DNA of 20,839 bases from Verrucomicrobiales bacterium. Lineage in GTDB: Bacteria; Verrucomicrobiota; Verrucomicrobiia; Methylacidiphilales; JAAUTS01. The notes beneath the pieces were generated by a model. The model was not told the DNA's origin and did not search any database. It saw nothing but the letters and a program-made list of their open reading frames with translations. This document shows positions 1 to 20,839 of the stretch, one piece after another. The stretch is taken from the NCBI GenBank assembly GCA_031265105.1, contig JAISDC010000082.1, positions 1 to 20,839 on the forward strand, read 5' to 3'. Position numbers and translations under genes: made by a program. Position 1 is the first letter of the stretch, and each line of letters opens with the position of its first letter.

Positions 1-2811
1 GCCGGGCCATTGCCACGGCCCTGGAGTCCGTGACCTCGACCGACGCCACCGCCTGGTTCCGTTCCTGCGGATATACGCCGTGGCCTGTTGAATCCATCTA
101 GTTTTGATGTGCTCTAGGGTGGTGTGGGCTTTCACCAACAGCGGGGGCATGGTCAGCGGGTCGTAGAGGTTGGCTAGGGTGGCGGTGGGGTAGTTGGCGC
201 GGATGTTCAGCACGGCGCGGGCGGCTTGCTCGACTTTGGCGCGTTGCGCCGCTGATGGTGTTGGCCACGGGAAATTGTTGTACACAAGTTTATTGGAGTA
301 GCGGTAGCGAGATTCTAAACGCCCGCAGACTTGTTTGGTCCATGCCATGTGCATCGCTGACGATAACACGCCAAAATGATAAAGCGTAGCTTCAGGGATG
401 GCGGCACAACTATTATGCACGATGGTTTTTGTCGTAAAATAACCGAACGGAATATAAGTACGTGTTTCCGAAGTGTGAAGTGGAACCAAAATATAAGTTT
501 TTTTCGGTTGCCGAATTTCCGCGAACAGCGACGGTGTTTTTGCTACCTCGCGGGTGGGAGCTTTTTTGCTCGCCAAACGAAAATCTTTGCACGCTTGGAC
601 ACGCTTTTTCACGCCGGGATTTTCCGCAATTATTTTTGGCGGTGCATCCACCAGCCACAGACAATAGCGCCGCTGACCATGAAGAAATTCTTCGGCGGAA
701 ACCATCGGGCGCACATACGGTGCCGCTGACGGATTGTCTTTGATAAATTGCGCGCGTTCGTTTTCCTCAATAATCAAATGCCCACCGTCAGCGGGTTTGT
801 TGCCGTAGATGATGGACGGCACATCGCACAATGGTTTGGAGCGCGACGTAATCACACTGTCAGCGCCTTCAATTAAATACGGGTTGATGTTTTTGACCGC
901 GCTGATGGTGGAATGTTCATCGTCAGCGACGTAGTCGTAGATTTTTTTGTGGTCACGGTCAGCGATGCCGAAACCGATGATGACGCAATGCACGTGCGCT
1001 TTGCCGGGCGCTTCGCTCGCCCATTTGAAGGTGTGGTGGGCGAAGTGAATTTTAACGCCACGCTGGAACAAACGCGACCAGAGCGCGCCGGGTTGTTCGC
1101 CTTGCGTGATGCTGTTGGTGGAGACGAAGGCTGCGCTGATGGTGAAATTTTTTTGCATATACTCCACTGCTTTCACATACCATGCGGTGACGTAATCCAA
1201 AATACCCGTGCCGTTGACGGTGCCGAAGACGCGCTCCATGTCTTGCGATTGCTCGACGGTCATCAAATGTTTGCCGACAAACGGCGGATTGCCCAGCACG
1301 TAGCTGCACGCTGACGGTGGCAGGATTTTTTCCCAGTCCACCGTCAGCGCGTTGGCGAGGTGGATGTGCGGGGCGGCTTTGAGTGGCAGGCGTTTGAATT
1401 GTTGTCCCATTTTTTCCGCCAGTTCGCTGTTACTTTGGTGGTCTTGCAGCCACAGGCCGACTTTGGCGATGCGGGCGGGCCATTCGCTGATTTCAATGCC
1501 ATAGAATTGGTCAACGTCCACGCACGCGAGGTTGCGGATGTCGAGTTCGGTTTGGACTTGACCGGCAGCGTCCCGATGCAGCGCGACGATGACGGCGTTT
1601 TCCATGACGCGCAGTTCGCGGTAGGCGAGGATGAGGAAGTTGCCGCAGCCGCAGGCGGGGTCGAGGAGTTTGATGTGACGCAGTTTTTTTGGGAACTCTT
1701 TCAAGCGCGTTACGCGGCGCGAGGAGCGGTCGCTGACGATGAGGCGCAGTTCGTCGCGGAGTTCGTTGAGGAACAGGTCGTTGAGCAACTTCATGATGTC
1801 GCGCTCGCCGGTGTAGTGCGCGCCGAGTTGCCGCCGCGCCTGGTCGTCCATGACGCCTTGGAAGAGCGAGCCGAAGATGGCGGGGGAGATTTTCGCCCAC
1901 TGGTAATCGCAGCAGCGGAGGAGCGCGTCGCGTTGCGCGGTGTCGAAGTGGCACACGGGCAGACGGTCGGCGAAGAGTCCGCCGTTGACGTGCGGGAACA
2001 GGTCGAATGTTGCGTGGCGCTGACGGCGCGCCGGCTCGGTGTCGAGTGTCCACCATAGTTCCGCGAGGGTGCCGCCGAGGTGGCGCGGCTCGGTGTGGCG
2101 GATGAGTTCGGTGAAACTTTGCGGCTCGAAGATGAACGAGTCTTCCGCGAACAGGCAAAAGAGCAGGCGCACGAGGTAACGCTCCAGTTCGCGGCGCGGG
2201 TAGTTGGTCGCTGACAGTGAGTCGTGCAAGTCGGCGAGGAGTTGCGCGGCTTTGATGTTCGCCGCGCGCTCGGTGTGGACGCGGACGCGCTGTTCGCCGA
2301 CGAGGAAGGCGAAGTCGCGGACGTGTTGCGGCAGGTCGCTGAGGGTGAACTCGGTGAGGTGATATTGGTGGTCGTCGAAGAGGGGGAGACCGAGGCGGTG
2401 GTCTTGCGGGTCGAGGTCAATGATGCGGAAGCGGGCGAAGTCGCACAGGACGATGAAGCGCGGGAGGTCGTTATGGCGACCGTCAGCGGCGAGGTCATGG
2501 ACGTAGCCGATGGCTTGCTGCTGCGCGGTGTCAATGTCGGCGCCGCGTGATTTGTGTTCGACGAGCATGACGCCTTTCCAGAAAAAATCAATGAACCCGC
2601 GCCCGCCGCTGACGGTGGCGACGGGGACTTCAAACGCGCCGAGGACGCGGCTGGGCAGACCGAAGGCGGCGAGGAGTTCGTGCCAGAAGAGTTGTTTGTC
2701 GGCGTTTTCGCGGGAGGCAGTTTTCCATGTGTCGGCGAAGCGCGCGGCGTTGGCGCGGATTTCCGCCCAAGTGAGCCGCGCTGACGGTGTGGGGTGCCGC
2801 TGTGGTTCCAT
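1..2811 (-). CDS. MmeI-family Type IIL/IIG restriction-modification enzyme (endonuclease plus N6-adenine methyltransferase fusion). Partial: the C-terminus lies beyond the window start.
   Basis: I translated the reverse complement myself. Frame-0 reading starts at ATG 2811..2809 (MEPQRHPTPSARLTWAEIRANAARFADTWK...). The upstream in-frame stop is the GNAT TAG at 2889..2887. N-terminal nuclease motif D-x9-E-x-K sits in GRGFIDFFWKGVMLVEHKSRG, as in MmeI (GFVDLFWPGILLIEMKSRG). Further blocks that match the MmeI sequence as I recall it: YLVRLLFCLFAEDSFIFE, RISPAIFGSLFQGVMDDQARRQLGAHYTGE, LDPACGCGNFLILAYRELR (SAM motif I), VLGNPPFVGK (NPPF motif IV), AFVSTNSITQGEQ, AHVHCVIIGFG, GRLESRYRYSNKLVYNNFPWP, LYDPLTMPP. 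There is no in-frame stop down to position 1, so the gene is at least 936 codons. It is not in the ORF track because it has no in-window stop. The last ~35 in-window codons are R/W-rich and atypical. Confidence 0.85.
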   Translation of the reverse strand, partial: MEPQRHPTPSARLTWAEIRANAARFADTWKTASRENADKQLFWHELLAAFGLPSRVLGAFEVPVATVSGGRGFIDFFWKGVMLVEHKSRGADIDTAQQQAIGYVHDLAADGRHNDLPRFIVLCDFARFRIIDLDPQDHRLGLPLFDDHQYHLTEFTLSDLPQHVRDFAFLVGEQRVRVHTERAANIKAAQLLADLHDSLSATNYPRRELERYLVRLLFCLFAEDSFIFEPQSFTELIRHTEPRHLGGTLAELWWTLDTEPARRQRHATFDLFPHVNGGLFADRLPVCHFDTAQRDALLRCCDYQWAKISPAIFGSLFQGVMDDQARRQLGAHYTGERDIMKLLNDLFLNELRDELRLIVSDRSSRRVTRLKEFPKKLRHIKLLDPACGCGNFLILAYRELRVMENAVIVALHRDAAGQVQTELDIRNLACVDVDQFYGIEISEWPARIAKVGLWLQDHQSNSELAEKMGQQFKRLPLKAAPHIHLANALTVDWEKILPPSACSYVLGNPPFVGKHLMTVEQSQDMERVFGTVNGTGILDYVTAWYVKAVEYMQKNFTISAAFVSTNSITQGEQPGALWSRLFQRGVKIHFAHHTFKWASEAPGKAHVHCVIIGFGIADRDHKKIYDYVADDEHSTISAVKNINPYLIEGADSVITSRSKPLCDVPSIIYGNKPADGGHLIIEENERAQFIKDNPSAAPYVRPMVSAEEFLHGQRRYCLWLVDAPPKIIAENPGVKKRVQACKDFRLASKKAPTREVAKTPSLFAEIRQPKKTYILVPLHTSETRTYIPFGYFTTKTIVHNSCAAIPEATLYHFGVLSSAMHMAWTKQVCGRLESRYRYSNKLVYNNFPWPTPSAAQRAKVEQAARAVLNIRANYPTATLANLYDPLTMPPLLVKAHTTLEHIKTRWIQQATAYIRRNGTRRWRRSRSRTPGPWQWPG

Positions 2812-2886
2812 CGAAAATATGCTGCGGATACGACCGTGAAAAGTCAACGGGGCTGATGGTGATGGCACCGCCGGTTTTGCGTGGCG

Positions 2887-3285
2887 CTAACGGTGGGCGT
2901 TATCAATGACCCCGCCGCGGAGAATGTGGAAGCCGTGGTCGCGGTAGAAGGATTCTTTTTCCGGGACAAAGGTGGTCCAGATACATTGGATGCCGTCCGT
3001 GGTCAGCGCGGTGACCGCGGTGGAGATTAGTTTTGCGCCGAGACCTTGTTTTTGATACTGCGGGTGGACGATGATGTTGACTAACAAAGCGTCGCCAACG
3101 CCGTCACTGATGACGTTTAAGAAAGCCGCCAGCCGCTGACGGTCACGCGCCGTGAAATAGCAGTACGAACCGCGCAACACCCGGGCTTGGGTGTGTTCGC
3201 AAGGTTCCCAGCCGACCGCCGCGCGCAATGCGGCGATTTCTCCGGGGGTGACGGGCTGGTTGCGTTCGATGGGTGGCAGTGTCAT
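2887..3285 (-). CDS. GNAT-family N-acetyltransferase, 132 aa
   Basis: ATG at 3285. Acetyl-CoA binding block Q/R-x-x-G-x-G/A is present (HPQYQKQGLGAKLISTAV). Size and beta-alpha layout are typical of small GNATs. The stop is 75 bp upstream of the RM gene start on the same strand. Confidence 0.75.
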   Translation of the reverse strand: MTLPPIERNQPVTPGEIAALRAAVGWEPCEHTQARVLRGSYCYFTARDRQRLAAFLNVISDGVGDALLVNIIVHPQYQKQGLGAKLISTAVTALTTDGIQCIWTTFVPEKESFYRDHGFHILRGGVIDNAHR

Positions 3286-3337
3286 GATATGCTATTAAAC
3301 CATATTCCTGCGCTAGCCCATCGTTTTTTCTCATCTC

Positions 3338-3366
3338 TTGAACCATCGATTGATTTCGTTTACCAT
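3338..3366 (+). promoter_or_regulatory. candidate sigma70-like promoter for the MIF-like gene (TTGAAC - 17 bp - TACCAT). The -10 hexamer ends 5 nt before the ATG, implying a leaderless or near-leaderless mRNA.
   Basis: TTGAAC at 3338-3343, a 17-nt spacer, TACCAT at 3361-3366, ATG at 3372. There is no Shine-Dalgarno sequence upstream of the ATG. The region is AT-rich and divergent, shared with the GNAT/RM operon. Confidence 0.3.
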
Positions 3367-3371
3367 GCGGC

Positions 3372-3716
3372 ATGCCTGTTCTCAAAATCCAAACCAATCT
3401 TGTCCTCAGCAGCCAGGAACAGCAAGACGTGCTAAAAGCCGTCTCGCGATTGGCGGCCAAGGAGCTTGGCAAGCCGGAGCGTTATGTCATGGTCAGCGTC
3501 GAGACCGCCGCCGCCATGCTGTTCGGCGGCACCGACGATCCCTGCGCATTCGTTGAATTATGCAGTCTCGGACTGCCCGCTGACCAGGCGGCGCGCTTGT
3601 CGGCGATGATTTGCGGTTTATTAAAAGAGTCGCTGAACCTCGACCCGCGGCGGGTGTATATCAGGATGTCCGATCACCCGGCCAACCTGTGGGGGTGGAA
3701 CGGGGAGACGTTTTGA
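3372..3716 (+). CDS. macrophage migration inhibitory factor (MIF)-like protein of the tautomerase superfamily, 114 aa, Pro-1 type
   Basis: MPVLKIQTN...YVMVSV...GGTDDPCAFVELCSLGL...RVYIRMSDHPANLWGWNGETF aligns end to end with mammalian MIF (MPMFIVNTNVPRA...[32 protein letters not shown]...[22 protein letters not shown]). Length is identical (114 aa). The catalytic Pro immediately follows the Met. Confidence 0.8.
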   Translation: MPVLKIQTNLVLSSQEQQDVLKAVSRLAAKELGKPERYVMVSVETAAAMLFGGTDDPCAFVELCSLGLPADQAARLSAMICGLLKESLNLDPRRVYIRMSDHPANLWGWNGETF

Positions 3717-3812
3717 TTGAAGATTGATGATGGCCAATTGACTATTTGCCGATTGCGCGCGGCGCGCCAACTAACAAATTATCAATATTCAATGATCAAT
3801 GGAAAATTCCCC

Positions 3813-5621
3813 ATGTCGCTCCTGCAACTCAACAACATCACGCTGCAATACGGCGCGGCGCCCTTGCTCGCTGGCGTCGATTTCCAGCTCGACGAGGGCG
3901 AGCGCGTGTGCTTGCTGGGCCGCAACGGCACGGGCAAGACCAGCCTGCTGCGGGTCATCGCCGGCGAGGAAACGCCCAACGGCGGCGAGGTCATCGTCAG
4001 CGGCGGTAAAATCATCACGCGGCTGCCGCAGGAAATTCCTGACAACTTAACCGGCGACACCGTCAGCGTCATTCGCGACGGACTGCCCGCTGACCGTCAC
4101 GAGGAGGAATGGGAAACGGCACGGCGCATCGAGACGCTGCTGGCGGCGATGAAGCTGCCCGCTGACGCTGACTTCACGGCGCTGTCCGGCGGCCTGCGGC
4201 GTCGCGTGCTGCTGGCGCGGGCACTGGCGGGGCGGCCCGACGCGCTGCTGCTCGACGAGCCGACCAACCATCTCGACATCGACTCGATTCTGTGGCTGGA
4301 GAATTTTTTGCTGGCGCAAAAAACCGCGTTGCTGTTCACCACGCACGACCGCGCGTTCCTGCAGCGGCTGGCCACGCGCATCGTCGAACTGGATCGCGGC
4401 AAACTCTCCTCGTGGGACTGCGATTACGCAACCTACCTTGTCCGCAAGGAAGCGTGGCTCGAAGCCGAGGAAAAAAACTGGGCGACATTCGATAAAAAAC
4501 TGACGCAAGAAGAAGCCTGGCTGCGGCAAGGGGTCAAAGCCCGCCGCACCCGCAACGAGGGCCGGGTCCGCGCGCTGGAGCAAATGCGCCGCGAGCGCAG
4601 CCAGCGGCGCGAACGGCTCGGCAACGCCAGGCTCAGCCTCAGCGAGGCCGAGGTGTCGGGCCGCAAAGTCATCACCGCCGAAAACCTCGGCTTCACCTAC
4701 GGCGACCGCCCCATCGTCAGCGGCTTCAGCACGGAAATCTGGCGCGGCGACAAAATCGGCATCATCGGCCCGAACGGCGCGGGCAAGACCACGCTACTGA
4801 AATTATTGCTGGGGCAACTATCACCGTCAGCGGGCCGCGCGCGGCACGGGACGAATTTGCAAGTTGCCTATCTCGACCAACTCCGCGCCATCAATAACGA
4901 GAAAACCGTGGCGGAGAATGTCGCCGGCGCCGCGGCAAGCATCACATTCCAGGGCCGGTCGCGACATATTCATAGTTACTTGTCAGACTTCCTGTTCGCG
5001 CCCGACCGCGCGCGCTCTCCCGCCAAGGTTTTGTCCGGCGGCGAGCGCAACCGGCTGCTGCTGGCAAAATTGTTTTTGCAACCCGCCAACGTGCTGGCGC
5101 TTGACGAACCGACCAACGACCTCGACGCCGAGACGCTGGAGTTGCTGGAAAATTTATTGGTGGAATACGACGGCACGCTGCTGCTGGTGTCGCACGACCG
5201 CGCCTTCCTGGACGAAGTTTGCGCCAGCACGCTGGTGTTCGGCGCTGACGGTGAGGTGACGGAATACCATGGCGGCTATAGCGATTGGTTGAAGCACGCT
5301 GCCAATGAACGAAAAATATCATCCGCTGACACTGACACAAAAAAATCCCCCGCTGACGTGGCGGTGAAAAAATCCTGCCGCCCGCGCAAATTCCTTAATC
5401 GCGAACAATGGGAGCTTGACGCCCTGCCTGGCAAAATCGAGCGACTCGAAGCCGAGCAAGAGCAAGTTTCGCAACAACTCTGGGATCCCGAACTATACCA
5501 AAAATCGCCTGAGAAAATCCCCGAACTCAAGTCACGTTCAGCGGCGCTGGAACAGGAAAGCAAAGCCGCCTACGCCCGCTGGGAGGAACTGGAGCAGCTC
5601 CGCCGGGAGTGCGGTGGCTGA
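3813..5621 (+). CDS. uup: ABC-F family ATP-binding protein Uup (tandem ABC domains plus C-terminal coiled-coil/DNA-binding tail)
   Basis: MSLLQLNNITLQYGAAPLL...GRNGTGKTSLLRV (Walker A 1), LSGGLRRRVLLARAL (signature 1), LLLDEPTNHLD (Walker B 1), GPNGAGKTTLLK (Walker A 2), LSGGERNRLLLAKL (signature 2), LALDEPTNDLD (Walker B 2), and the QEEAWLRQGVKARRTRNEGRVRALEQMRRER linker. It is collinear with E. coli Uup (MSLISMHGAWL...). The ORF-track start at 3717 is a TTG immediately after the MIF stop, so I prefer the in-frame ATG at 3813. Confidence 0.9.
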   Translation: MSLLQLNNITLQYGAAPLLAGVDFQLDEGERVCLLGRNGTGKTSLLRVIAGEETPNGGEVIVSGGKIITRLPQEIPDNLTGDTVSVIRDGLPADRHEEEWETARRIETLLAAMKLPADADFTALSGGLRRRVLLARALAGRPDALLLDEPTNHLDIDSILWLENFLLAQKTALLFTTHDRAFLQRLATRIVELDRGKLSSWDCDYATYLVRKEAWLEAEEKNWATFDKKLTQEEAWLRQGVKARRTRNEGRVRALEQMRRERSQRRERLGNARLSLSEAEVSGRKVITAENLGFTYGDRPIVSGFSTEIWRGDKIGIIGPNGAGKTTLLKLLLGQLSPSAGRARHGTNLQVAYLDQLRAINNEKTVAENVAGAAASITFQGRSRHIHSYLSDFLFAPDRARSPAKVLSGGERNRLLLAKLFLQPANVLALDEPTNDLDAETLELLENLLVEYDGTLLLVSHDRAFLDEVCASTLVFGADGEVTEYHGGYSDWLKHAANERKISSADTDTKKSPADVAVKKSCRPRKFLNREQWELDALPGKIERLEAEQEQVSQQLWDPELYQKSPEKIPELKSRSAALEQESKAAYARWEELEQLRRECGG

Positions 5622-16676: not shown

Positions 16677-16717
16677 AAAAAAAAAAACTTGCGGTCATCC
16701 GGCTATTGTAATACAGT
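16677..16717 (+). promoter_or_regulatory. A11 homopolymer tract immediately upstream of a candidate promoter (TTGCGG - 17 - TACAGT) that reads toward the repeat/autotransporter locus
   Basis: A x11 at 16677-16687. TTGCGG at 16689-16694, a 17-nt spacer, TACAGT at 16712-16717. Confidence 0.25.
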
Positions 16718-16837
16718 CGCGCCCCGTTGCCGCAAACGGCTGATAGTGAAAGCTCCGCCAGCAGGGGGGCTTAAGCCAAAGCGGAAAAGCGGCAACTCCT
16801 TGAAGATGATTGACCTGGGCCATAACCGCAGGACGCC

Positions 16838-16894
16838 GCGCTCACGCGCTCACGCGCTCACGCGCTCACGCGCTCACGCGCTCACGCGCTCACG
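16838..16894. repeat. perfect octanucleotide tandem repeat (GCGCTCAC) x7
   Basis: Seven head-to-tail copies run from 16838 to 16893, preceded by a partial unit. They lie in the divergent intergenic region between nfeD and the 42-bp repeat locus. The unit length is not a multiple of 3. Confidence 0.9.
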
Positions 16895-17059
16895 CGCTCA
16901 CGGTATGACTCTTGCCCTGATTCCTTAATTTCCCCGCCAGTTTTTACCCTTTTCATTCCCCATGCGGTAACATTCCGGCAGGATGCCACCCCGTCACGAT
17001 TAGCGTCACCTCCCGCACGGTATCATACGATTCCTACCTGGCGAGAGCCGTTTCATGCA

Positions 17060-17377
17060 GTGCAGGAAGCGCATACTGCATTGCATGATTTGCCTCCTGC
17101 GGCGCGGGAACCGAATACTGCAACGCATGACGCGCATCCTGCAACGCAGGAGTCGAATACTGCACTGCATGATTCACCTCCTGCGGCGCGGGAACCGCAT
17201 ACTGCAACGCATGACGCGCATCCTGCAATGCAGGAGTCGAATACTGCGCCGCATGATTCACCTCCTGCGGTGCGGGAAGCGCATACTGCAACGCATGACA
17301 CACCTCCTGCCGAGCAGGATTACCCACTTTTGGCGGCTGTGTGGCCGCCATTAAACCAACCCCAAAGGAACCCATGA
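17060..17377 (+). CDS. possible 105-aa repeat protein (14-aa HD/P/T-rich repeats) encoded by the 42-bp array. Coding status and strand are uncertain.
   Basis: GTG start at 17060. Its TGA stop overlaps the ATG of the next gene (ATGA at 17374-17377), which suggests translational coupling. The unit length is a multiple of 3. A minus-strand alternative exists (ATG 17351 to stop 17034: MAATQPPKVGNPARQEV, then a 14-aa repeat alternating PAPQEVNHAAQYST / PALQDARHALQYAV). Neither candidate has a Shine-Dalgarno sequence. Confidence 0.25.
   Translation: MQEAHTALHDLPPAAREPNTATHDAHPATQESNTALHDSPPAAREPHTATHDAHPAMQESNTAPHDSPPAVREAHTATHDTPPAEQDYPLLAAVWPPLNQPQRNP
17073..17324. repeat. 42-bp tandem repeat array, about 6 units, with two alternating unit types forming an 84-bp higher-order repeat
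   Basis: Units start with ATACTGCA at 17073, 17115, 17157, 17199, 17241 and 17283. Odd units read ...GCATGATTYRCCTCCTGCGGYGCGGGAASCGM. Even units read ...AACGCATGACGCGCATCCTGCAAYGCAGGAGTCGA. Units contain short stem-loops such as CCTGCaacGCAGG. All six frames are open across the array. Confidence 0.9.
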
Positions 17378-18129
17378 ATAGAAACCAACATGCAGTCAGC
17401 AACATCAGCGTCAAAAAATACATCCACAAAACCTGGGACGGTATTGACGACTTCTTCACCCAATACGGCGACAACCTCGTCAACGTCCAGACCAAAACCG
17501 ACCCCGGTCTCGCCGACGCCGACATCGCCAATGTCAAGGAAACCACCGCCGCCTACGGCAAATTGAACCAAGCCATTGACGAAGTGGAAAGACTCCTCGC
17601 CGCCCTGCGCGCCCTGCGCATCCAACTCCTCACCCAGCAAACTATGGACCCCGTCCGCGTCCCCCTCATCCAACCCCTCACCACCCTCCTTGCCGCCATC
17701 GAAGGCAAACGCGGCGGCTTGCTCTGGCAAGAAGACCGCCTCACCGACCGCATCTTCCGCAGCCCCAGATGCACCCAGGAAGACTACGAAATGCTCGGCA
17801 TCGTTTACAAACCCAACACTTCAGCCCCCATTGATAACCTCATCGGCAAACTCTACGCCGTGTTTGACGGCGGCAAAGTTCCGATCCATTGGACCCTCCC
17901 GCGCGGCTACCACAACGCCCGCCTCACCGCCAGCACCAACCACGGCGAATGGGTACTACTCTACGAAGGCAGCGAAAGCCACTTCATCGACGCGCGCCCC
18001 ATCCCCGCCATCTCCGAAATCCGCTCCTACAAACTCGAAATCATGGAAACCGGCAAACCCATCGGCAAACCCGCCATCGACAAAATCCTCGTCGGCCAAG
18101 ACATCTCCGTCGAAGAAACCAAACTCTAA
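17374..18129 (+). CDS. hypothetical protein, 251 aa. No domain recognised; no signal peptide.
   Basis: AAAGGAA Shine-Dalgarno sequence 4-5 nt upstream of ATG 17374. Protein-like composition (MNRNQHAVSNISVKKYIHKTWDGIDDFF...). Codon usage has more A/T-ending codons than the core genes and resembles the adjacent autotransporter. A long inverted-repeat terminator follows it. Confidence 0.6.
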   Translation: MNRNQHAVSNISVKKYIHKTWDGIDDFFTQYGDNLVNVQTKTDPGLADADIANVKETTAAYGKLNQAIDEVERLLAALRALRIQLLTQQTMDPVRVPLIQPLTTLLAAIEGKRGGLLWQEDRLTDRIFRSPRCTQEDYEMLGIVYKPNTSAPIDNLIGKLYAVFDGGKVPIHWTLPRGYHNARLTASTNHGEWVLLYEGSESHFIDARPIPAISEIRSYKLEIMETGKPIGKPAIDKILVGQDISVEETKL

Positions 18130-18140
18130 CTAGCCTCATT

Positions 18141-18248
18141 AACGCAAAGACGCAAAGGAACAAAGTAACGCAAAGATTTTTGTTAATTGAAAAACCAAAC
18201 CAAAAAAATCTTCGCGCCTTTGCCCCTTTGTTCCTTTGCGTTAATGCA
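18141..18248. terminator. family B inverted-repeat element pair forming a long hairpin after the 251-aa gene
   Basis: Left arm ATTAACGCAAAGACGCAAAGGAACAAAGTAACGCAAAG, then ATTTTTG. Right arm AAAAAATCTTCGCGCCTTTGCCCCTTTGTTCCTTTGCGTTAAT. Homologous copies are at 11343-11394 and 12533-12553. Confidence 0.55.
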
Positions 18249-18263
18249 GCTCAAAAAAACTTT

Positions 18264-20839
18264 ATGAAAACCTCCAACATGAAAACACGAAAACTAACCC
18301 TGATACTAACCCTCCTCTGCGCCCTCAGCGTCTCCGCGTTGAACATCTTCGCGGAAAACAAAATCGTCAATACCGGCACCGTGGTGGAATCCGGCAGTAC
18401 CTACGCCGCCTCCACCAATCAGTCGGCCCTGACGGTCAGCGGCAGCGGGACGCTGTACGAGGGCACTAACCTTACTTTGTCCAGCACCGAGACCAACCAG
18501 CATGGCGTCTTCGTCAACACCCAAGGCGCGCTATCGTTACGTGACAGCACGGTTTTCACTTCCGCCACTGGCGCTTACGGCATTGCGTTGACCACCACCT
18601 CGTCCGCCAGCCTGGAACGTGTCGCGGTCACGGTCAGCGAAGCGTTTTCGCATGGCATCTATATGTTGAACTCCAAGCTGTCCGTGACCGACGCGACAGT
18701 GGTGATTTCGGCATCCAATAGGAACGGTCATTTCGACGGAATATACATCGGCAACACCAGCGAAGCTGATTTGACAAATGTGAGCGTAGAATTACGGGGC
18801 GACCAGACCAACGGCATCAGCATCCTCAACACCGCCACCGACAAAAGCACCGTCACGGCCACCGGTATCAACATTGCCGCGCAAGGCGAACTTGCCGACG
18901 GTCGGGCCAATGTCAGCGGTGTCACCGTAGAAGGTAACGCGGACCTGCAAATGCGCGATTTTTTAGTCACGGTGCGCGACGGTAATGCGGGCGTGAACAC
19001 TTGGACGAACCCTATACTACGGGTTGACGAGTTTGTGACGCTGCGCAGCGGCACCATCATTATGATTGATAGCGGCGCCGGGATTAATGTCGGCGGCAAC
19101 GGTAATCGCTATGTGGCATTGCACGATGTGGCTATCAGCGCGAGCGGCGAGGACACCCATGCCATTCTTATGGACACGCGCGGGTTGGACATTGATGACA
19201 AAGTTCTGCTGGTTGACGGCGGCAAGTTCATCGCCGAAAACGGGGCGGCGCTCCGGGTGGGGCTGTTCGGCGAGACATCCGAGCTCAATGCCACGCAGTC
19301 CGCGGGCGCCAACTATACCGTCACCATCACCGGCAGCGCCGCCCTCAGCGGCACGGCGGCCATGGAATTCGGCACCACCGCCATTGCCCCCAGCGGCACG
19401 GCCTACGAACTGGTCAACCACGCCCGCATAACCGTGGCGGATGGCTCCACCCTCACCGGTGCCACCAACATCCACGGCAACTCCGACGTGAATATAGAAC
19501 TCACCGACAACTCCGCCCTGACCGGCGACCTTACCGCCAGCGGCTCGTCCAACACCACCCTCAGCGGCAGCAACGGCGCCACCATCACCGGCACCGTCAG
19601 CGGCAACGATAACGCCGTCATCGACCTCACCGTCAGAGGCCCCGGCAGCACCATCATCAGTGACATTAACCAAAACGACGACGCAGCCGTCACCATCACC
19701 CTCGATAACAGCGCCACCGGCCAAGGCGGCTACCACGGCGGCAACCTCATCACCGGCAGCGATAGCACCTGGACTTTTGACAAGGACAGCCACGGCAACT
19801 ACGGCGAAAACAATGGCACTTGGAACATCGGCGACTACGAAGTCATCTTCGATAACATGACCCACACCGGCACCGTTAACATCAGCGTCAACACCGACAC
19901 CGGCGACGGCGGCTCTATCACTGTGGATACCGCTGACGGTGAAGGCACCGTCCACATCGACACCACCGGCAACGGTAAACTCAACCCCAACGACGTACTC
20001 CCCGGCGTCGTCACCGGCGACGGCACGGAACACTGGCAATGGGATCCCATCGACTGGGGCATCGACACCATCATCAAAGACGGCGACCACTTCATCAAAC
20101 AAGGCACCAGCCCCGCCGGCGCAGAATTGAACAGCAGCGTAGCCATCCAACAAGCCAGGTGGTTCGCGCAGCAAAACAGCCTGCTCAAACGCATGGGTGA
20201 CCTCCGCTTTTCGTCATCCCGTCAACTCGTCACCTCGTCGTCTGACAAAGCCGTCACCCTCAGCGCTGCCAACCTGATCGAAAACATCTGGCTCAGAAGC
20301 TACGGCCAACAATTAAACGTCGGCAGTAAAGTATCAGGCAAAGCCTACGAACAACTCATCTACGGCGTGGACTTGGGCACTGACCATAAGTTCACCTTGT
20401 CCGCTGACAGTGACTTATATCTGGGCGTCTTCGCCGGTTACGGCCGCAGCGACCTCGACTACCGCACCCCCGGCACTGACGGTGAACTCAACTCCTACTA
20501 CGGCGGCCTCTACGCCACGTGGTTACACAGCAGCGGCCTCTACATCGACGCTACCGTCAAAGCCGCCAGCGTGGACAACAATCTAAAAGCTCCCTACAGC
20601 GGCAGTCAAATCACCGCCAACTACAGTGATGTGAACCTCGGCGGCAGCATCGAAATCGGGAAGAAGTTCACCTTCGCTGATGATTGGTTCATCGAACCCC
20701 AGTTTCAAGTCAACTACCTCCACATCCTCGCCGAGGACTATCAAGCCGGCCCCATGAGCATCACCGCCAGCGACCTCGACGCCCTCCAGTTCAGAATCGG
20801 CAGCGTATTCGGCCGCACCCTCAAGCTCGCCAACGGCGG
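18264..20839 (+). CDS. classical (type Va) autotransporter: signal peptide, Gly/Thr/Asn-rich beta-helical passenger, C-terminal beta-barrel. Partial: runs off the window end.
   Basis: MKTSNMKTRKLTLILTLLCALSVSALNIFA signal peptide. The passenger has repetitive beta-helix-like tracts (TLSGSNGATITGTVSGNDNAVIDLTV...). The junction reads AIQQARWFAQQNSLLKRMGDLRF...NIWLRSYGQQ, followed by barrel strands (YLGVFAGYGRSDLDY...GGLYATWLH...GGSIEIGKKF...). No stop occurs before 20839, hence it is absent from the ORF track. Confidence 0.85.
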   Translation, partial: MKTSNMKTRKLTLILTLLCALSVSALNIFAENKIVNTGTVVESGSTYAASTNQSALTVSGSGTLYEGTNLTLSSTETNQHGVFVNTQGALSLRDSTVFTSATGAYGIALTTTSSASLERVAVTVSEAFSHGIYMLNSKLSVTDATVVISASNRNGHFDGIYIGNTSEADLTNVSVELRGDQTNGISILNTATDKSTVTATGINIAAQGELADGRANVSGVTVEGNADLQMRDFLVTVRDGNAGVNTWTNPILRVDEFVTLRSGTIIMIDSGAGINVGGNGNRYVALHDVAISASGEDTHAILMDTRGLDIDDKVLLVDGGKFIAENGAALRVGLFGETSELNATQSAGANYTVTITGSAALSGTAAMEFGTTAIAPSGTAYELVNHARITVADGSTLTGATNIHGNSDVNIELTDNSALTGDLTASGSSNTTLSGSNGATITGTVSGNDNAVIDLTVRGPGSTIISDINQNDDAAVTITLDNSATGQGGYHGGNLITGSDSTWTFDKDSHGNYGENNGTWNIGDYEVIFDNMTHTGTVNISVNTDTGDGGSITVDTADGEGTVHIDTTGNGKLNPNDVLPGVVTGDGTEHWQWDPIDWGIDTIIKDGDHFIKQGTSPAGAELNSSVAIQQARWFAQQNSLLKRMGDLRFSSSRQLVTSSSDKAVTLSAANLIENIWLRSYGQQLNVGSKVSGKAYEQLIYGVDLGTDHKFTLSADSDLYLGVFAGYGRSDLDYRTPGTDGELNSYYGGLYATWLHSSGLYIDATVKAASVDNNLKAPYSGSQITANYSDVNLGGSIEIGKKFTFADDWFIEPQFQVNYLHILAEDYQAGPMSITASDLDALQFRIGSVFGRTLKLANG

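What the first reader, a model, noticed from the sequence alone, without database searches (positions are those of the whole stretch)
17060..17377. 42-bp x6 tandem repeat array open in all six frames, ATGA-coupled to the downstream gene; coding or RNA element unresolved
The array has two alternating 42-bp unit types (an 84-bp higher-order repeat). Each unit carries small stem-loops (CCTGCaacGCAGG, TGCAttGCATGA). The array ends in a GGCGGCtgtgtgGCCGCC hairpin at 17332-17349.

Because 42 = 14 codons, both a + frame and a - frame give clean 14-aa repeats:
- + frame: HDAHPATQESNTAL / HDSPPAAREPHTAT;
- - frame: PAPQEVNHAAQYST / PALQDARHALQYAV.

The + frame terminates with TGA overlapping the ATG of the 251-aa gene. 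The - frame would start inside that hairpin.

It could be any of the following:
- a small repeat protein whose copy number varies in 14-aa steps;
- a structured leader or sRNA array;
- a recombinogenic spacer.

It is not a CRISPR array: the spacer-like units are near-identical.

I recognise neither peptide repeat.
Basis: seen in the sequence. Interest (0 to 1): 0.7.

Follow-up and report, generated by a model that had tools for sequence, protein, structure and literature searches.

The report
Palindromic repeat leader of adhesin operon
The 42-bp repeats are neither a protein gene nor a CRISPR array. They are a self-complementary 21-base repeat array inside a long reading frame with no start codon, in the leader of a surface-protein operon. 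A nearby 8-base repeat appears to switch reading of that frame on and off, and the same design recurs at a dozen related loci.

Summary
The array is real: 12 x 21 bp = 6 x 42 = 3 x 84 bp, at 17062-17313. It is open in four of six frames, not all six.

It is one module of a conserved leader, found upstream of every close homologue of the 251-aa gene for which upstream sequence was available (Verrucomicrobiales/Opitutaceae MAGs). The order is: promoter-like block, ATG, perfect 8-bp repeat (16837-16902), conserved 65-nt block, 21-nt array, 251-aa gene, autotransporter.

Array sequence differs at every locus, even between orthologous loci with 96% identical flanks. Three features persist:
- the 21-nt period;
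- dyad symmetry (as RNA the window array folds into one long hairpin, -146 kcal/mol, z -6);
- one + frame that stays open from the 8-bp repeat to within 0-37 nt of the gene's ATG (9/9 independent loci versus 4/18 control frames).

That frame has no start codon after the 8-bp repeat, shows no third-codon-position excess of variation, and has no protein homologues.

With 8 repeat copies the upstream ATG stops at 16926. With 7 or 10 copies it would read through the array to the ATGA.

Best reading: a phase-variable, translated leader whose self-complementary array gates downstream expression. The gating mechanism is inferred, not shown.

The parts
16677..16717 (+). Promoter-like block: A-tract (16677-16687), TTGCGG (16689-16694), a 17-nt spacer, then TACAGT (16712-16717).
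   Evidence: The same A-tract + TTGC(G/A)C + 17 nt + TA(T/C)(C/A)GT block aligns in 8 of 10 loci. The strict sigma-70 scan found nothing here, so promoter function is inferred.
16806..16928 (+). Short upstream ORF as it stands now: ATG 16806, read through the 8-bp repeat, stop TAA 16926-16928.
   Evidence: The ATG lies 31 nt before the repeat in the window, L001 and L005-L009, within a conserved CTGAAGATGA. In a simulation, 8 copies give a stop at 16926, while 4, 7 or 10 copies read on to TGA 17375.
16837..16902 (+). Perfect 8-bp simple sequence repeat, CGCGCTCA x 8.2. This is the proposed frame switch.
   Evidence: TRF gives 100% match, score 132. The orthologous locus L001 has 7 copies. Paralogues have 4, 9, at least 9.5, at least 12 or 13 copies, or different octamers (CCCTCGCT, CCCCAGCT).
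16903..16967 (+). Conserved leader block (..TATGAC..TAATTT..TTTTACC..CATTCCCCAT). It holds the stops of the two short frames (TGA 16906, TAA 16926).
   Evidence: The block is 77-92% identical in 9 other loci and aligns without gaps. Conservation is at nucleotide level, with no third-codon-position excess.
16826..17377 (+). 'Frame C': a stop-to-stop open frame with no internal start codon before GTG 17060. It spans the 8-bp repeat, the leader, the array and the terminal hairpin, and ends in a TGA that overlaps the ATG of the 251-aa gene.
   Evidence: With the frame defined in advance by the CATTCCCCAT motif, it stays open to within 40 nt of the ATG in 9/9 independent loci, against 4/18 for the other + frames (Fisher p = 1.5e-4, computed by hand from those counts).
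17062..17313 (.). The array: 12 units of 21 nt (6 x 42, 3 x 84). It is dyad-symmetric around a CTGC-nnn-GCAG core. A degenerate 13th unit lies at 17314-17331.
   Evidence: TRF; unit listing. There are two symmetry centres 10.5 nt apart, with 0.65/0.62 Watson-Crick pairing against a median of 0.24 at other centres. The array is 0.66 identical to its own reverse complement. It folds back as one long hairpin, -146.4 kcal/mol, z -6.1.
17332..17349 (+). Terminal GC hairpin GGCGGC-tgtgtg-GCCGCC.
   Evidence: A related CTTTCG(A)CGGCGG..CCGCC motif is present in 8 of 11 loci, with weak covariation. The same nucleotides are read in different frames in L003 and L004.
17350..17373 (+). C/A-rich, G-poor spacer containing AAGGA just before the ATG. 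It is predicted to be unpaired.
17374..18129 (+). 251-aa gene: an N-terminal helical domain plus a C-terminal FN3-like beta-sandwich. Function unknown.
18132..18251 (+). A second long hairpin, between the 251-aa gene and the autotransporter gene. Its 51-nt arms are built from ACGCAAAG-type short repeats.
   Evidence: Inverted repeat with 73% complementary arms. RNA fold -48.4 kcal/mol, z -9.3.
18264..20839 (+). Autotransporter gene (signal peptide, passenger domain, beta-barrel). It runs off the end of the window.
   Evidence: Pfam PF03797, E = 9e-32; translation.

Best explanation
The array is a nucleic-acid-level element, not a gene for a repeat protein. It is a dyad-symmetric tandem repeat of 21 nt (7 codons). 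It forms the body of a long leader reading frame in the 5' region of a surface-protein operon (251-aa helical/FN3 protein, then an autotransporter).

That frame has no start codon of its own. It can only be entered from an ATG at 16806 through a perfect 8-bp repeat, so the repeat's copy number decides the outcome:
- OFF: ribosomes stop within 30 nt after the repeat. This is the window's state, with 8 copies and a stop at 16926.
- ON: ribosomes read about 150 further codons through the array and terminate on the ATGA of the 251-aa gene. This would need 7 or 10 copies.

Proposed mechanism:
- In the OFF state the ribosome-free array folds into a long imperfect hairpin. The untranslated leader is then exposed to Rho-dependent termination and/or double-strand-specific RNase cleavage, so the downstream genes are poorly expressed.
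- In the ON state, translating ribosomes keep the array unfolded, cover the leader and deliver ribosomes to the ATG.
- A 21-nt unit lets the array gain or lose units without breaking the frame.

Shown here: the architecture, the frames, the symmetry, and their conservation. Inferred: the start site, the promoter, the switching, and every regulatory consequence.
For: 1. Same module order at the window and at 10 other loci that encode close homologues of the 251-aa protein.

2. The array is the variable part.
- The window and the orthologous L001 are 95.9% identical up to 16967. They are unalignable over 16968-17400, then 88% identical.
- Each locus has its own palindrome, for example CTCTATC/GATAGAG, CTCTAAA/TTTAGAG, TCTGGTG/CACCAGA, ACTTGG/CCAAGT.
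- All arrays keep a 21-nt period and two dyad centres with 0.5-0.75 Watson-Crick pairing, against about 0.24 elsewhere.

3. Folding: window -146.4 kcal/mol, z -6.1; other loci z -4 to -13.

4. Frame C stays open.
- It holds 0 stops, against 22 and 25 in the other two + frames outside the arrays, and 0 against 7 and 78 inside them.
- With the frame defined in advance, 9/9 independent loci stay open against 4/18 control frames.
- In L011 it is the only one of six frames open through the array.
- Its stop lies 0-37 nt before the ATG, or the frame is fused in-frame to the gene (L002, L003).

5. The peptide itself is not constrained.
- There is no third-codon-position excess of variation.
- The frame's register relative to the conserved motifs differs between loci.
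- Neither peptide has a homologue.

6. The 8-bp repeat behaves like a switch.
- Two of the three frames close within 30 nt after it.
- Copy number is 8 in the window and 7 in the orthologue L001, and 4-13 among paralogues.
- A simulation of 4-12 copies gives read-through at 4, 7 and 10 copies.

7. Loci without the 8-bp repeat (L010, L137) have an ordinary ATG-started ORF reading through the array.

8. Distant homologues of the protein (hhalign probability 96%, 20-24% identity) also have 21-nt arrays directly upstream and secreted-protein genes downstream. Arrays there differ by -63 and +21 bp between samples.
Against: - There is no expression data of any kind.
- The promoter and the ATG at 16806 are inferred. 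The ATG has no clear Shine-Dalgarno sequence, and the strict promoter scan found nothing.
- Nine of the ten loci that could be scored are in an OFF frame, and five of those have only 4 copies. This is compatible with 'mostly off' but gives no positive evidence of switching.
- In the predicted fold the ribosome-binding site and ATG of the 251-aa gene are unpaired, so masking of the start site is not the mechanism.
- Mismatches in the palindrome arms show no excess of G-T over A-C (47 versus 35). The symmetry therefore cannot be assigned to RNA rather than DNA.
- If only a hairpin were needed, it is unclear why every locus has its own sequence.
- The Bacteroidota-like relatives have only weak dyad symmetry, and there the - strand carries an ORF that starts with ATG.
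- All comparison loci come from short-read MAGs or metagenome contigs, so repeat counts may be mis-assembled.
Confidence: 0.5

Rival explanations
1. DNA-level operator or iteron-like array. The 21-bp units present inverted half-sites every 10.5 bp, on one face of the helix. A dimeric DNA-binding protein, possibly the linked 251-aa protein, polymerises along them and silences or activates the operon. The locus-specific sequences would give each paralogue its own cognate regulator.
For: - Two dyad centres lie exactly 10.5 bp apart in every array, and the period is strictly 21 bp = two helical turns.
- Arm mismatches show no strand asymmetry, which fits a double-stranded DNA site.
- The array and the first ~9 codons of the 251-aa gene are exchanged together between the window and L001.
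- Loci with similar arrays have similar protein N-termini (L003/L004; L002/L011).
- The array and the protein family stay linked over large evolutionary distance.
Against: - Two centres 10.5 bp apart follow automatically from one dyad in a 21-bp period, so this is not independent evidence.
- The 251-aa protein shows no HTH or RHH fold. Only an FN3-like domain and an unmatched helical domain were found.
- The similarity of N-termini is also what simple linkage would produce.
- This model does not explain why one + frame is kept open from the 8-bp repeat to the ATG, nor why loci without the repeat supply an ATG for that frame.
Confidence: 0.2
2. A genuine small repeat protein is encoded, whose sequence matters. 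Candidates are the + frame (105 aa from GTG 17060, or about 187 aa from ATG 16806 when the repeat is in phase) and the - frame (170 aa, 17546..17034). Copy number would vary in 7- or 14-aa steps.
For: - The + frame is kept open at all loci.
- Gene callers annotated ORFs over the arrays in public records: L132 has a 96-aa + ORF, and L010, L011 and L134-136 have - ORFs.
- In the Bacteroidota-like relatives a - strand ORF with an ATG changes length by whole heptads.
Against: - There is no third-position excess of variation in any array.
- The peptide repeats are unrelated between loci, and the frame's register relative to the conserved nucleotides shifts.
- There is no conserved start codon.
- Neither peptide has a homologue among 5.8 billion proteins. 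The only Pfam hits fall below the gathering thresholds.
- The - ORF would have to start inside the conserved 5' end of the 251-aa gene, and no - frame is open through the array in L011.
Confidence: 0.08
3. A functionless hypervariable minisatellite. On this view it is a quasi-palindromic spacer kept symmetrical by template-switching and slippage, and it marks a recombination hot spot between paralogous adhesin cassettes.
For: - The array has been completely replaced between orthologous loci whose flanks are 96% identical.
- Contigs break inside the multicopy gene family.
- Length varies in unit steps in the relatives.
Against: - Period, symmetry, position and the open frame persist at every locus although the sequences have diverged beyond alignment.
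- The array stays next to homologues that are only 20-24% identical.
Confidence: 0.1

Closest known systems
Neisseria opa genes: CTCTT pentamer repeats in the leader-peptide coding region of about 11 paralogous outer-membrane protein genes (own knowledge).
   Same: A multicopy surface-protein family in which each locus carries its own frameshifting simple sequence repeat just after a start codon. Only one of the three frames is productive.
   Different: Here the repeat sits in a separate leader ORF, not in the structural gene. That ORF encodes no conserved peptide, contains a dyad-symmetric 21-nt array, and ends at the start of the next gene.
Haemophilus influenzae hmw1A/hmw2A adhesin genes with 7-bp repeats upstream, or in biogroup aegyptius the octamer GCATCATC x 12-15 (PMC3309571).
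   Same: A non-triplet simple sequence repeat, including an octamer, lies upstream of adhesin genes, and its copy number differs between strains.
   Different: Those repeats are described as lying in the promoter region. No reading-frame logic, leader ORF or palindromic array has been described for them.
Leader-ORF control of Rho access (E. coli tnaC/tna operon), and leader switches of Clostridioides difficile cwpV and flgB, where the OFF state gives termination within the leader (own knowledge).
   Same: The proposed logic is the same: whether the 5' leader is translated or folded decides whether transcription and translation reach the downstream genes.
   Different: In those systems the switch is an amino-acid-sensing nascent peptide or an invertible DNA segment, not a simple sequence repeat. 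None contains a long tandem palindromic array. Nothing has been shown experimentally here.
Centromere- or iteron-type arrays: F plasmid sopC (12 x 43 bp, each with an inverted repeat) and ParR/parC tandem repeats (own knowledge).
   Same: Tandem units in helical phase, each carrying a short inverted repeat, next to a gene that stays linked to the array.
   Different: The context here is chromosomal and housekeeping, with about ten loci per genome. The array lies in a transcribed, open-frame leader. The adjacent protein has no known DNA-binding fold.
Chlamydia pmp autotransporter family with poly-G phase variation (PVC superphylum; surfaced, details from own knowledge).
   Same: A paralogous autotransporter family in a related phylum, switched by slipped-strand frameshifts.
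   Different: That switch is a homopolymer tract inside the pmp genes. There is no leader ORF and no array.

Membership tests
Phase-variable contingency locus driven by a simple sequence repeat (translational frameshift type) | A perfect tandem repeat whose unit length is not a multiple of three | tested here: met
   CGCGCTCA x 8.2, 100% match, at 16837-16902. Other loci carry 4-13 copies or different octamers.
Phase-variable contingency locus driven by a simple sequence repeat (translational frameshift type) | The repeat lies inside a reading frame downstream of a start codon, and only one of the three frames gives the long product | tested here: met
   The ATG lies 31 nt upstream and is conserved in the window, L001 and L005-L009. 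Two frames stop within 30 nt after the repeat, and the third runs about 470 nt to the next gene. That the ATG is actually used is inferred.
Phase-variable contingency locus driven by a simple sequence repeat (translational frameshift type) | Copy number differs between strains or within populations at the same locus | tested here: inconclusive
   The window has 8 copies and the orthologous L001 has 7. This is a single pair of assemblies. Read-level heterogeneity could not be examined.
Phase-variable contingency locus driven by a simple sequence repeat (translational frameshift type) | Observed ON/OFF switching of expression | not testable with these tools
   No expression data are available.
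CRISPR array | Conserved repeats separated by unique spacers of similar length | tested here: not met
   The units are contiguous 21-mers with no spacers, and all units are variants of one sequence.
Protein-coding tandem-repeat gene | Variation between units and between homologues follows codon structure (third-position excess), with a conserved start codon and detectable protein homologues | tested here: not met
   Across nine arrays (period-42 rows; L006, L007 omitted) the mean entropy at codon positions 1/2/3 is about 0.40/0.40/0.31. There is no conserved start codon and no homologues.
Iteron or centromere-like protein-binding array (sopC / parC type) | Tandem repeats in helical phase, each carrying dyad half-sites | tested here: met
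   The period is 21 bp, with dyad centres 10.5 bp apart in all arrays.
Iteron or centromere-like protein-binding array (sopC / parC type) | An adjacent gene for a cognate DNA-binding protein (Rep, ParB, ParR) in a plasmid or phage replicon | tested here: not met
   The neighbouring protein has a helical domain plus an FN3-like domain, with no known DNA-binding fold. The surrounding genes are chromosomal housekeeping genes. The phage collection gave no match.
Any described RNA family (Rfam 15) | A match at the family's gathering score | tested here: not met
   There were no matches at gathering score. Only sub-threshold matches to generic eukaryotic miRNA-precursor hairpin models appeared.
Leader-ORF/Rho polarity or RNase III-gated leader | Termination or cleavage within the untranslated leader that is relieved by translation | not testable with these tools
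   Only the prerequisites are seen: a long leader ORF, a strongly folding array, and C-rich, G-poor flanks. No intrinsic terminator was found on the + strand.

The most novel reading that the evidence does not exclude
The 21-nt (7-codon) dyad array and the helical/FN3 protein form a previously undescribed, widely conserved control module for secreted and surface proteins. In this reading the array is both translated and specifically recognised, as RNA or DNA, by the cognate protein encoded just downstream. Each of the roughly ten paralogous adhesin loci would then have a private feedback loop on top of a stochastic 8-bp-repeat switch. That would amount to a bacterial system for choosing individual members of a surface-protein family.
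Probability: 0.15. Interest if true: 0.85.

Novelty: new variant of a known kind. Interest (0 to 1): 0.62.

Why it matters
Slipped-strand phase variation of adhesin families is well known in pathogens. It has hardly been described in Verrucomicrobiota, the phylum these MAGs belong to.

In the known cases the repeat lies either in the structural gene or in the promoter. Here the switch would act through a long leader reading frame that is kept open but whose peptide is not constrained. The body of that frame is a self-complementary repeat array, and its unit length (7 codons, two helical turns) lets it expand and contract without breaking the frame.

If the model holds, it is a new way of coupling a stochastic DNA switch to expression of an operon. 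It would also explain why gene callers annotate spurious 'hypothetical proteins' on either strand of such arrays.

The array stays linked to an orphan helical/FN3 protein family, even at 20-24% protein identity. This gives a concrete handle on a protein family of unknown function.

Tried and rejected
- CRISPR: rejected, because there are no spacers.
- Known RNA families: none at gathering score; only generic hairpin (miRNA-model) noise at permissive thresholds.
- tRNA/tmRNA: none.
- Phage origin: no match in the phage collection.
- Pfam on the candidate peptides: only sub-threshold chance hits (PAAR_motif, Alanine_zipper, IBV_3B), all below their gathering scores.
- Protein homology of the + and - peptides: none.
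- The - strand ORF 17546..17034: rejected. It would start inside the conserved 5' end of the 251-aa gene. Its extent is inconsistent between loci. No - frame is open through the array in L011.
- Codon-position test for peptide constraint: negative in the arrays and in the conserved leader.
- G-T versus A-C mismatch asymmetry, used to tell RNA structure from DNA structure: 47 versus 35, uninformative.
- Covariation in the terminal GC hairpin: weak. The hairpin is absent from L001, L005-7 and L010.
- A stem flanking the 8-bp repeat (GTCATAA / TTATGAC): present in the CGCGCTCA-type loci but only marginally better than shuffles, and absent from the other repeat types.
- Masking of the 251-aa gene's start site by the array: not supported by the fold.
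- More family members from metagenome contigs: the protein-pattern scan confirmed nothing, and all matches returned by the leader-DNA pattern scan (131 loci held after it) were chance matches.
- Function of the 251-aa protein from its structure: only generic FN3 matches. The AFDB library was unavailable.
- Strict sigma-70 promoter scan and intrinsic-terminator scan: no promoter-like site, and no terminator-like site on the + strand.
Full report

Yes, in the main. Tandem Repeats Finder reports one array at 17062-17310. It has period 84 (3.0 copies, 90% matches, score 393), period 42 (5.9 copies) and period 21 (11.1 copies).

The following are all present:
- the GGCGGCtgtgtgGCCGCC hairpin at 17332-17349;
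- the two 14-aa peptide repeats;
- the TGA (17375-17377) overlapping the ATG (17374) of a 251-aa ORF.

One claim is wrong. The array is not open in all six frames. One + frame carries a TGA every 42 bp, six in all, and one - frame carries two TGA codons, so four of six frames are open.

The basic unit is 21 nt. The 42-nt unit exists because neighbouring 21-mers are approximate reverse complements of each other.

**2. Genomic context**

The window is chromosomal. It encodes peptide deformylase, an ABC-F protein, a P-type ATPase, RmuC, a PLD-family protein and an MmeI-type restriction enzyme.

The 251-aa gene (17374-18129) has no Pfam domain. It is followed by a long hairpin (18132-18251; -48.4 kcal/mol, z -9.3). 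After that comes an autotransporter gene that starts at 18264 and runs off the window (PF03797, E = 9e-32).

About 160 bp upstream of the array lies a perfect 8-bp repeat, CGCGCTCA x 8.2, at 16837-16902.

**3. Related loci**

The 251-aa protein belongs to a tiny family. Only 15 proteins were found among 5.8 billion, all from Verrucomicrobiales/Opitutaceae MAGs or JGI metagenomes.

A genome scan returned nine loci, eight of them from a single MAG. Several contigs break inside the gene, which marks a multicopy family. Four more loci came from exact-protein look-ups.

Where upstream sequence is present, the module order is the same in all but two (L133 has an IS66 insertion in place of the array; L010 has the array but lacks the 8-bp repeat and leader block, section 8):
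- an A-tract followed by TTGC(G/A)C, 17 nt, then a TAnnGT block;
- an ATG within a conserved CTGAAGATGA;
- a perfect 8-bp repeat (CGCGCTCA x 4 to at least 12, CCCTCGCT x 9 or 13, or CCCCAGCT x 8);
- a conserved ~65-nt block ending in CATTCCCCAT;
- a short variable linker;
- a 21-nt-period array of 8-16 units;
- usually a GC hairpin;
- a C/A-rich spacer;
- the gene.

The downstream cargo is an autotransporter where it can be read to its end (window, L001, L002, L003), a signal-peptide protein cut off by the contig end in L004 and L011, and a PEP-CTERM protein in L132.

**4. What varies and what is kept**

The array sequence is locus-specific. The window and L001 are clearly orthologous, at 95.9% identity over 3 kb ending at 16967. 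They share nothing over 16968-17400, then resume at 88%.

Despite this divergence, every array keeps the same three properties:
- **Period.** It is 21 nt in every array.
- **Dyad symmetry.** Each array has two symmetry centres per unit, 10.5 nt apart. Watson-Crick complementarity there is 0.5-0.75, against a median of about 0.24 at other centres.
- **Self-complementarity.** Each array is 0.58-0.73 identical to its own reverse complement. A null that preserves the tandem structure gives about 0.49.

The arms differ between loci but stay complementary. Examples are TCCTGC/GCAGGA, CTCTATC/GATAGAG, CTCTAAA/TTTAGAG, TCTGGTG/CACCAGA, TCTCAC/GTGAGA, ATCTGC/GCAGAT and ACTTGG/CCAAGT.

As single strands the arrays fold back into one long imperfect hairpin. 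The window gives -146.4 kcal/mol with z -6.1 against dinucleotide shuffles. Other loci give z -4 to -13.

Within arrays, variation sits in the loop and spacer columns, and the arms are nearly invariant.

**5. Coding or not?**

One + frame, here called frame C, is open in every locus that has the 8-bp repeat. It runs from the repeat through the leader block, linker, array and hairpin. It stops 0-37 nt before the gene's ATG. In the window the stop is the ATGA overlap. In L002 and L003 a frame runs straight into the gene.

The other two + frames stop within 30 nt after the repeat, at a conserved TTATGA and a conserved TAATTT.

Stop-codon counts for frame C and the two other + frames:

| Region | Frame C | Frame C+1 | Frame C+2 |
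|---|---|---|---|
| Non-array segments | 0 | 22 | 25 |
| Arrays | 0 | 7 | 78 |

Further points on the open frame:
- I defined frame C in advance from the CATTCCCCAT motif. It then reaches within 40 nt of the ATG in 9 of 9 independent loci, against 4 of 18 control frames (Fisher p = 1.5e-4, computed by hand from those counts).
- In L011 it is the only one of six frames open through the array.

Nothing suggests that the peptide itself matters:
- There is no third-codon-position excess of variation in the arrays or in the conserved leader.
- The heptad peptides are unrelated between loci.
- The conserved CAGAT core is read in all three registers in different loci. The terminal-hairpin nucleotides are read in different frames in L003 and L004.
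- There is no start codon in frame C after the 8-bp repeat.
- Neither the + nor the - peptide has any homologue.

The - strand frames are open largely because a dyad-symmetric sequence looks the same on both strands. Their ends are inconsistent between loci and fall inside the 251-aa gene.

So the frame is kept open, but not for the sake of its product.

**6. The 8-bp repeat as a gate**

Frame C can only be entered from upstream. A conserved ATG lies 31 nt before the repeat (16806 in the window).

With the observed 8 copies it reads into the frame that stops at TAA 16926. A simulation shows that 4, 7 or 10 copies would carry it through the array to TGA 17375, giving 179-195 codons.

Copy numbers and states at other loci:
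- The orthologous L001 has 7 copies. Because its junction is 2 nt shorter, it is also out of frame.
- L005-L009 have 4 copies and stop at TTATGA.
- L004 and L011 are out of frame.
- Only L002 is in frame. Its repeat is interrupted, which may lock it in that state.

Nine of the ten loci that can be scored are therefore OFF. This is compatible with a mostly silent family but is not evidence of switching.

**7. Proposed mechanism (inferred)**

In the OFF state, about 450 nt of leader is free of ribosomes, so the array can fold into a long duplex. The C-rich, G-poor flanks and this duplex would expose the transcript to Rho-dependent polarity and/or double-strand-specific RNase cleavage.

In the ON state, ribosomes unwind the array, cover the leader and terminate at or next to the ATG, which favours re-initiation.

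The start region of the 251-aa gene is predicted to be unpaired, so simple masking of the start site is not supported.

The 21-nt unit keeps the frame intact when units are gained or lost.

**8. Independent support from variant loci**

Two loci lack the 8-bp repeat and instead supply an ordinary start for the array-spanning frame:
- In L010, ORF 2615..3004 contains ATG codons and ends 30 nt inside the gene.
- In L137, the ORF has an ATG near position 514.

A profile search of 1.8 billion representative proteins found only four remote full-length relatives of the 251-aa protein. For two of them (P0025, P0031) hhalign gives 96% probability at 20-24% identity. Their loci look like this:

| Locus | Relative | Upstream element | Downstream / notes |
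|---|---|---|---|
| L134-L136 | P0025 | 21-nt-period arrays, weak dyad symmetry | AT-rich; T9SS-type secreted protease (Peptidase_S8 + Por_Secre_tail); three samples differ by -63 and +21 bp |
| L137 | P0031 | Palindromic 21-nt array | Leader ORF with its own ATG |
| L139 | P0033 | Palindromic 21-nt array | Short contig |
| L138 | P0027 | (CG)10.5 repeat, then degenerate dyads | Autotransporter |

The pairing of a 21-nt array with this protein family and a secreted-protein gene is therefore old and conserved.

**9. What remains open**

- **RNA or DNA?** Mismatches in the arms show no excess of G-T over A-C (47 versus 35), so the symmetry cannot be assigned to RNA rather than DNA. An operator-like array for a dimeric DNA-binding protein remains a serious rival. 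The 21-bp period equals two helical turns, and the array and the protein's N-terminus are exchanged together.
- **The neighbouring protein.** It shows no DNA-binding fold. The AlphaFold2 model (pLDDT 83) has a helical domain plus an FN3-like sandwich, and structure searches match only FN3 domains.
- **The operator model's gap.** It does not explain why frame C stays open.
- **The Bacteroidota-like relatives.** Their arrays are only weakly dyadic, and a - strand ORF with an ATG covers the array. Which strand matters there is unresolved.
- **Data quality.** All comparison loci come from short-read assemblies, so repeat counts may be imprecise.

**10. Comparison with known systems, and novelty**

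The 8-bp repeat fits the classical slipped-strand contingency-locus pattern. Examples are the opa genes, Chlamydia pmp, and the octamer repeats upstream of hmw adhesin genes (PMC3309571).

Four literature searches found no description of a repeat-gated leader ORF that carries a palindromic tandem array. Rfam has no matching family.

I rate it a new variant of a known kind: phase-variable control of an adhesin family, carried out through an unusual translated, self-complementary leader. There is a smaller chance that the array-protein pair is a regulatory module of a new type.

Noticed in passing
window 16837-16902: A perfect octanucleotide repeat, CGCGCTCA x 8.2, lies about 160 bp upstream of the array. 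It has 7 copies in the orthologous locus L001 and 4-13 copies (or a different octamer) in paralogues. It sets the reading frame that enters the array.
   Followed up: yes
window 18132-18251: A second long hairpin lies between the 251-aa gene and the autotransporter start. Its 51-nt arms are built from ACGCAAAG-type short repeats (RNA fold -48.4 kcal/mol, z -9.3). Pieces of it are conserved in L004, L005 and L007. It could be a processing site or an attenuator between the two cistrons.
   Followed up: partly
L134, L135, L136 (about 3300-3900): A remote homologue of the 251-aa protein sits upstream of a T9SS-type secreted protease in an AT-rich, Bacteroidota-like genome. It is preceded by about 24 units of 21 bp. 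Three samples differ by -63 and +21 bp. A + frame is open for 585 nt without a start codon. A - strand ORF with an ATG has been called at 94, 181 and 188 aa.
   Followed up: partly
L138 2597-2617: Another remote homologue has a (CG)10.5 dinucleotide repeat in place of the octamer. It is followed by degenerate, non-homogenised dyads (CCCCATC..GATGGGG), with an autotransporter downstream.
   Followed up: partly
L006 3340-3460, L007 3360-3450, L008 3278-3365, L137 320-405: A large palindrome made of CCACGGATGGACACGGAT-type repeats, flanked by A/T runs, sits just upstream of the promoter-like block in several loci. It looks like a bidirectional terminator or insulator shared by the family.
   Followed up: no
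L133 1562-2064: In one family member an IS66-type transposase fragment lies immediately upstream of the gene. Only a degenerate remnant of the array is left.
   Followed up: no
L137 833-858: A 7-bp repeat, TTTGAGA x 3.7, lies between the stop of the array-spanning ORF and the start of the homologous gene. It may be another length-variable element.
   Followed up: no
window 16903-16928 and the same block in L001, L003, L005-L009: The two short frames after the 8-bp repeat are linked. In the loci whose junction reads TTATGAC (L001, L003, L005-L007) or GTATGAC (L008, L009), the TGA of the short upstream ORF overlaps an ATG (T-ATG-A). That ATG opens a conserved 7-codon mini-ORF ending at the conserved TAATTT. 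In the window (8 copies) the upstream ORF reads through this ATG in frame and stops at the same TAA.
   Followed up: partly
window 1-2886 (- strand): A complete-looking MmeI-family type IIL restriction-modification enzyme, with all five MmeI domains. It is unrelated to the finding.
   Followed up: no
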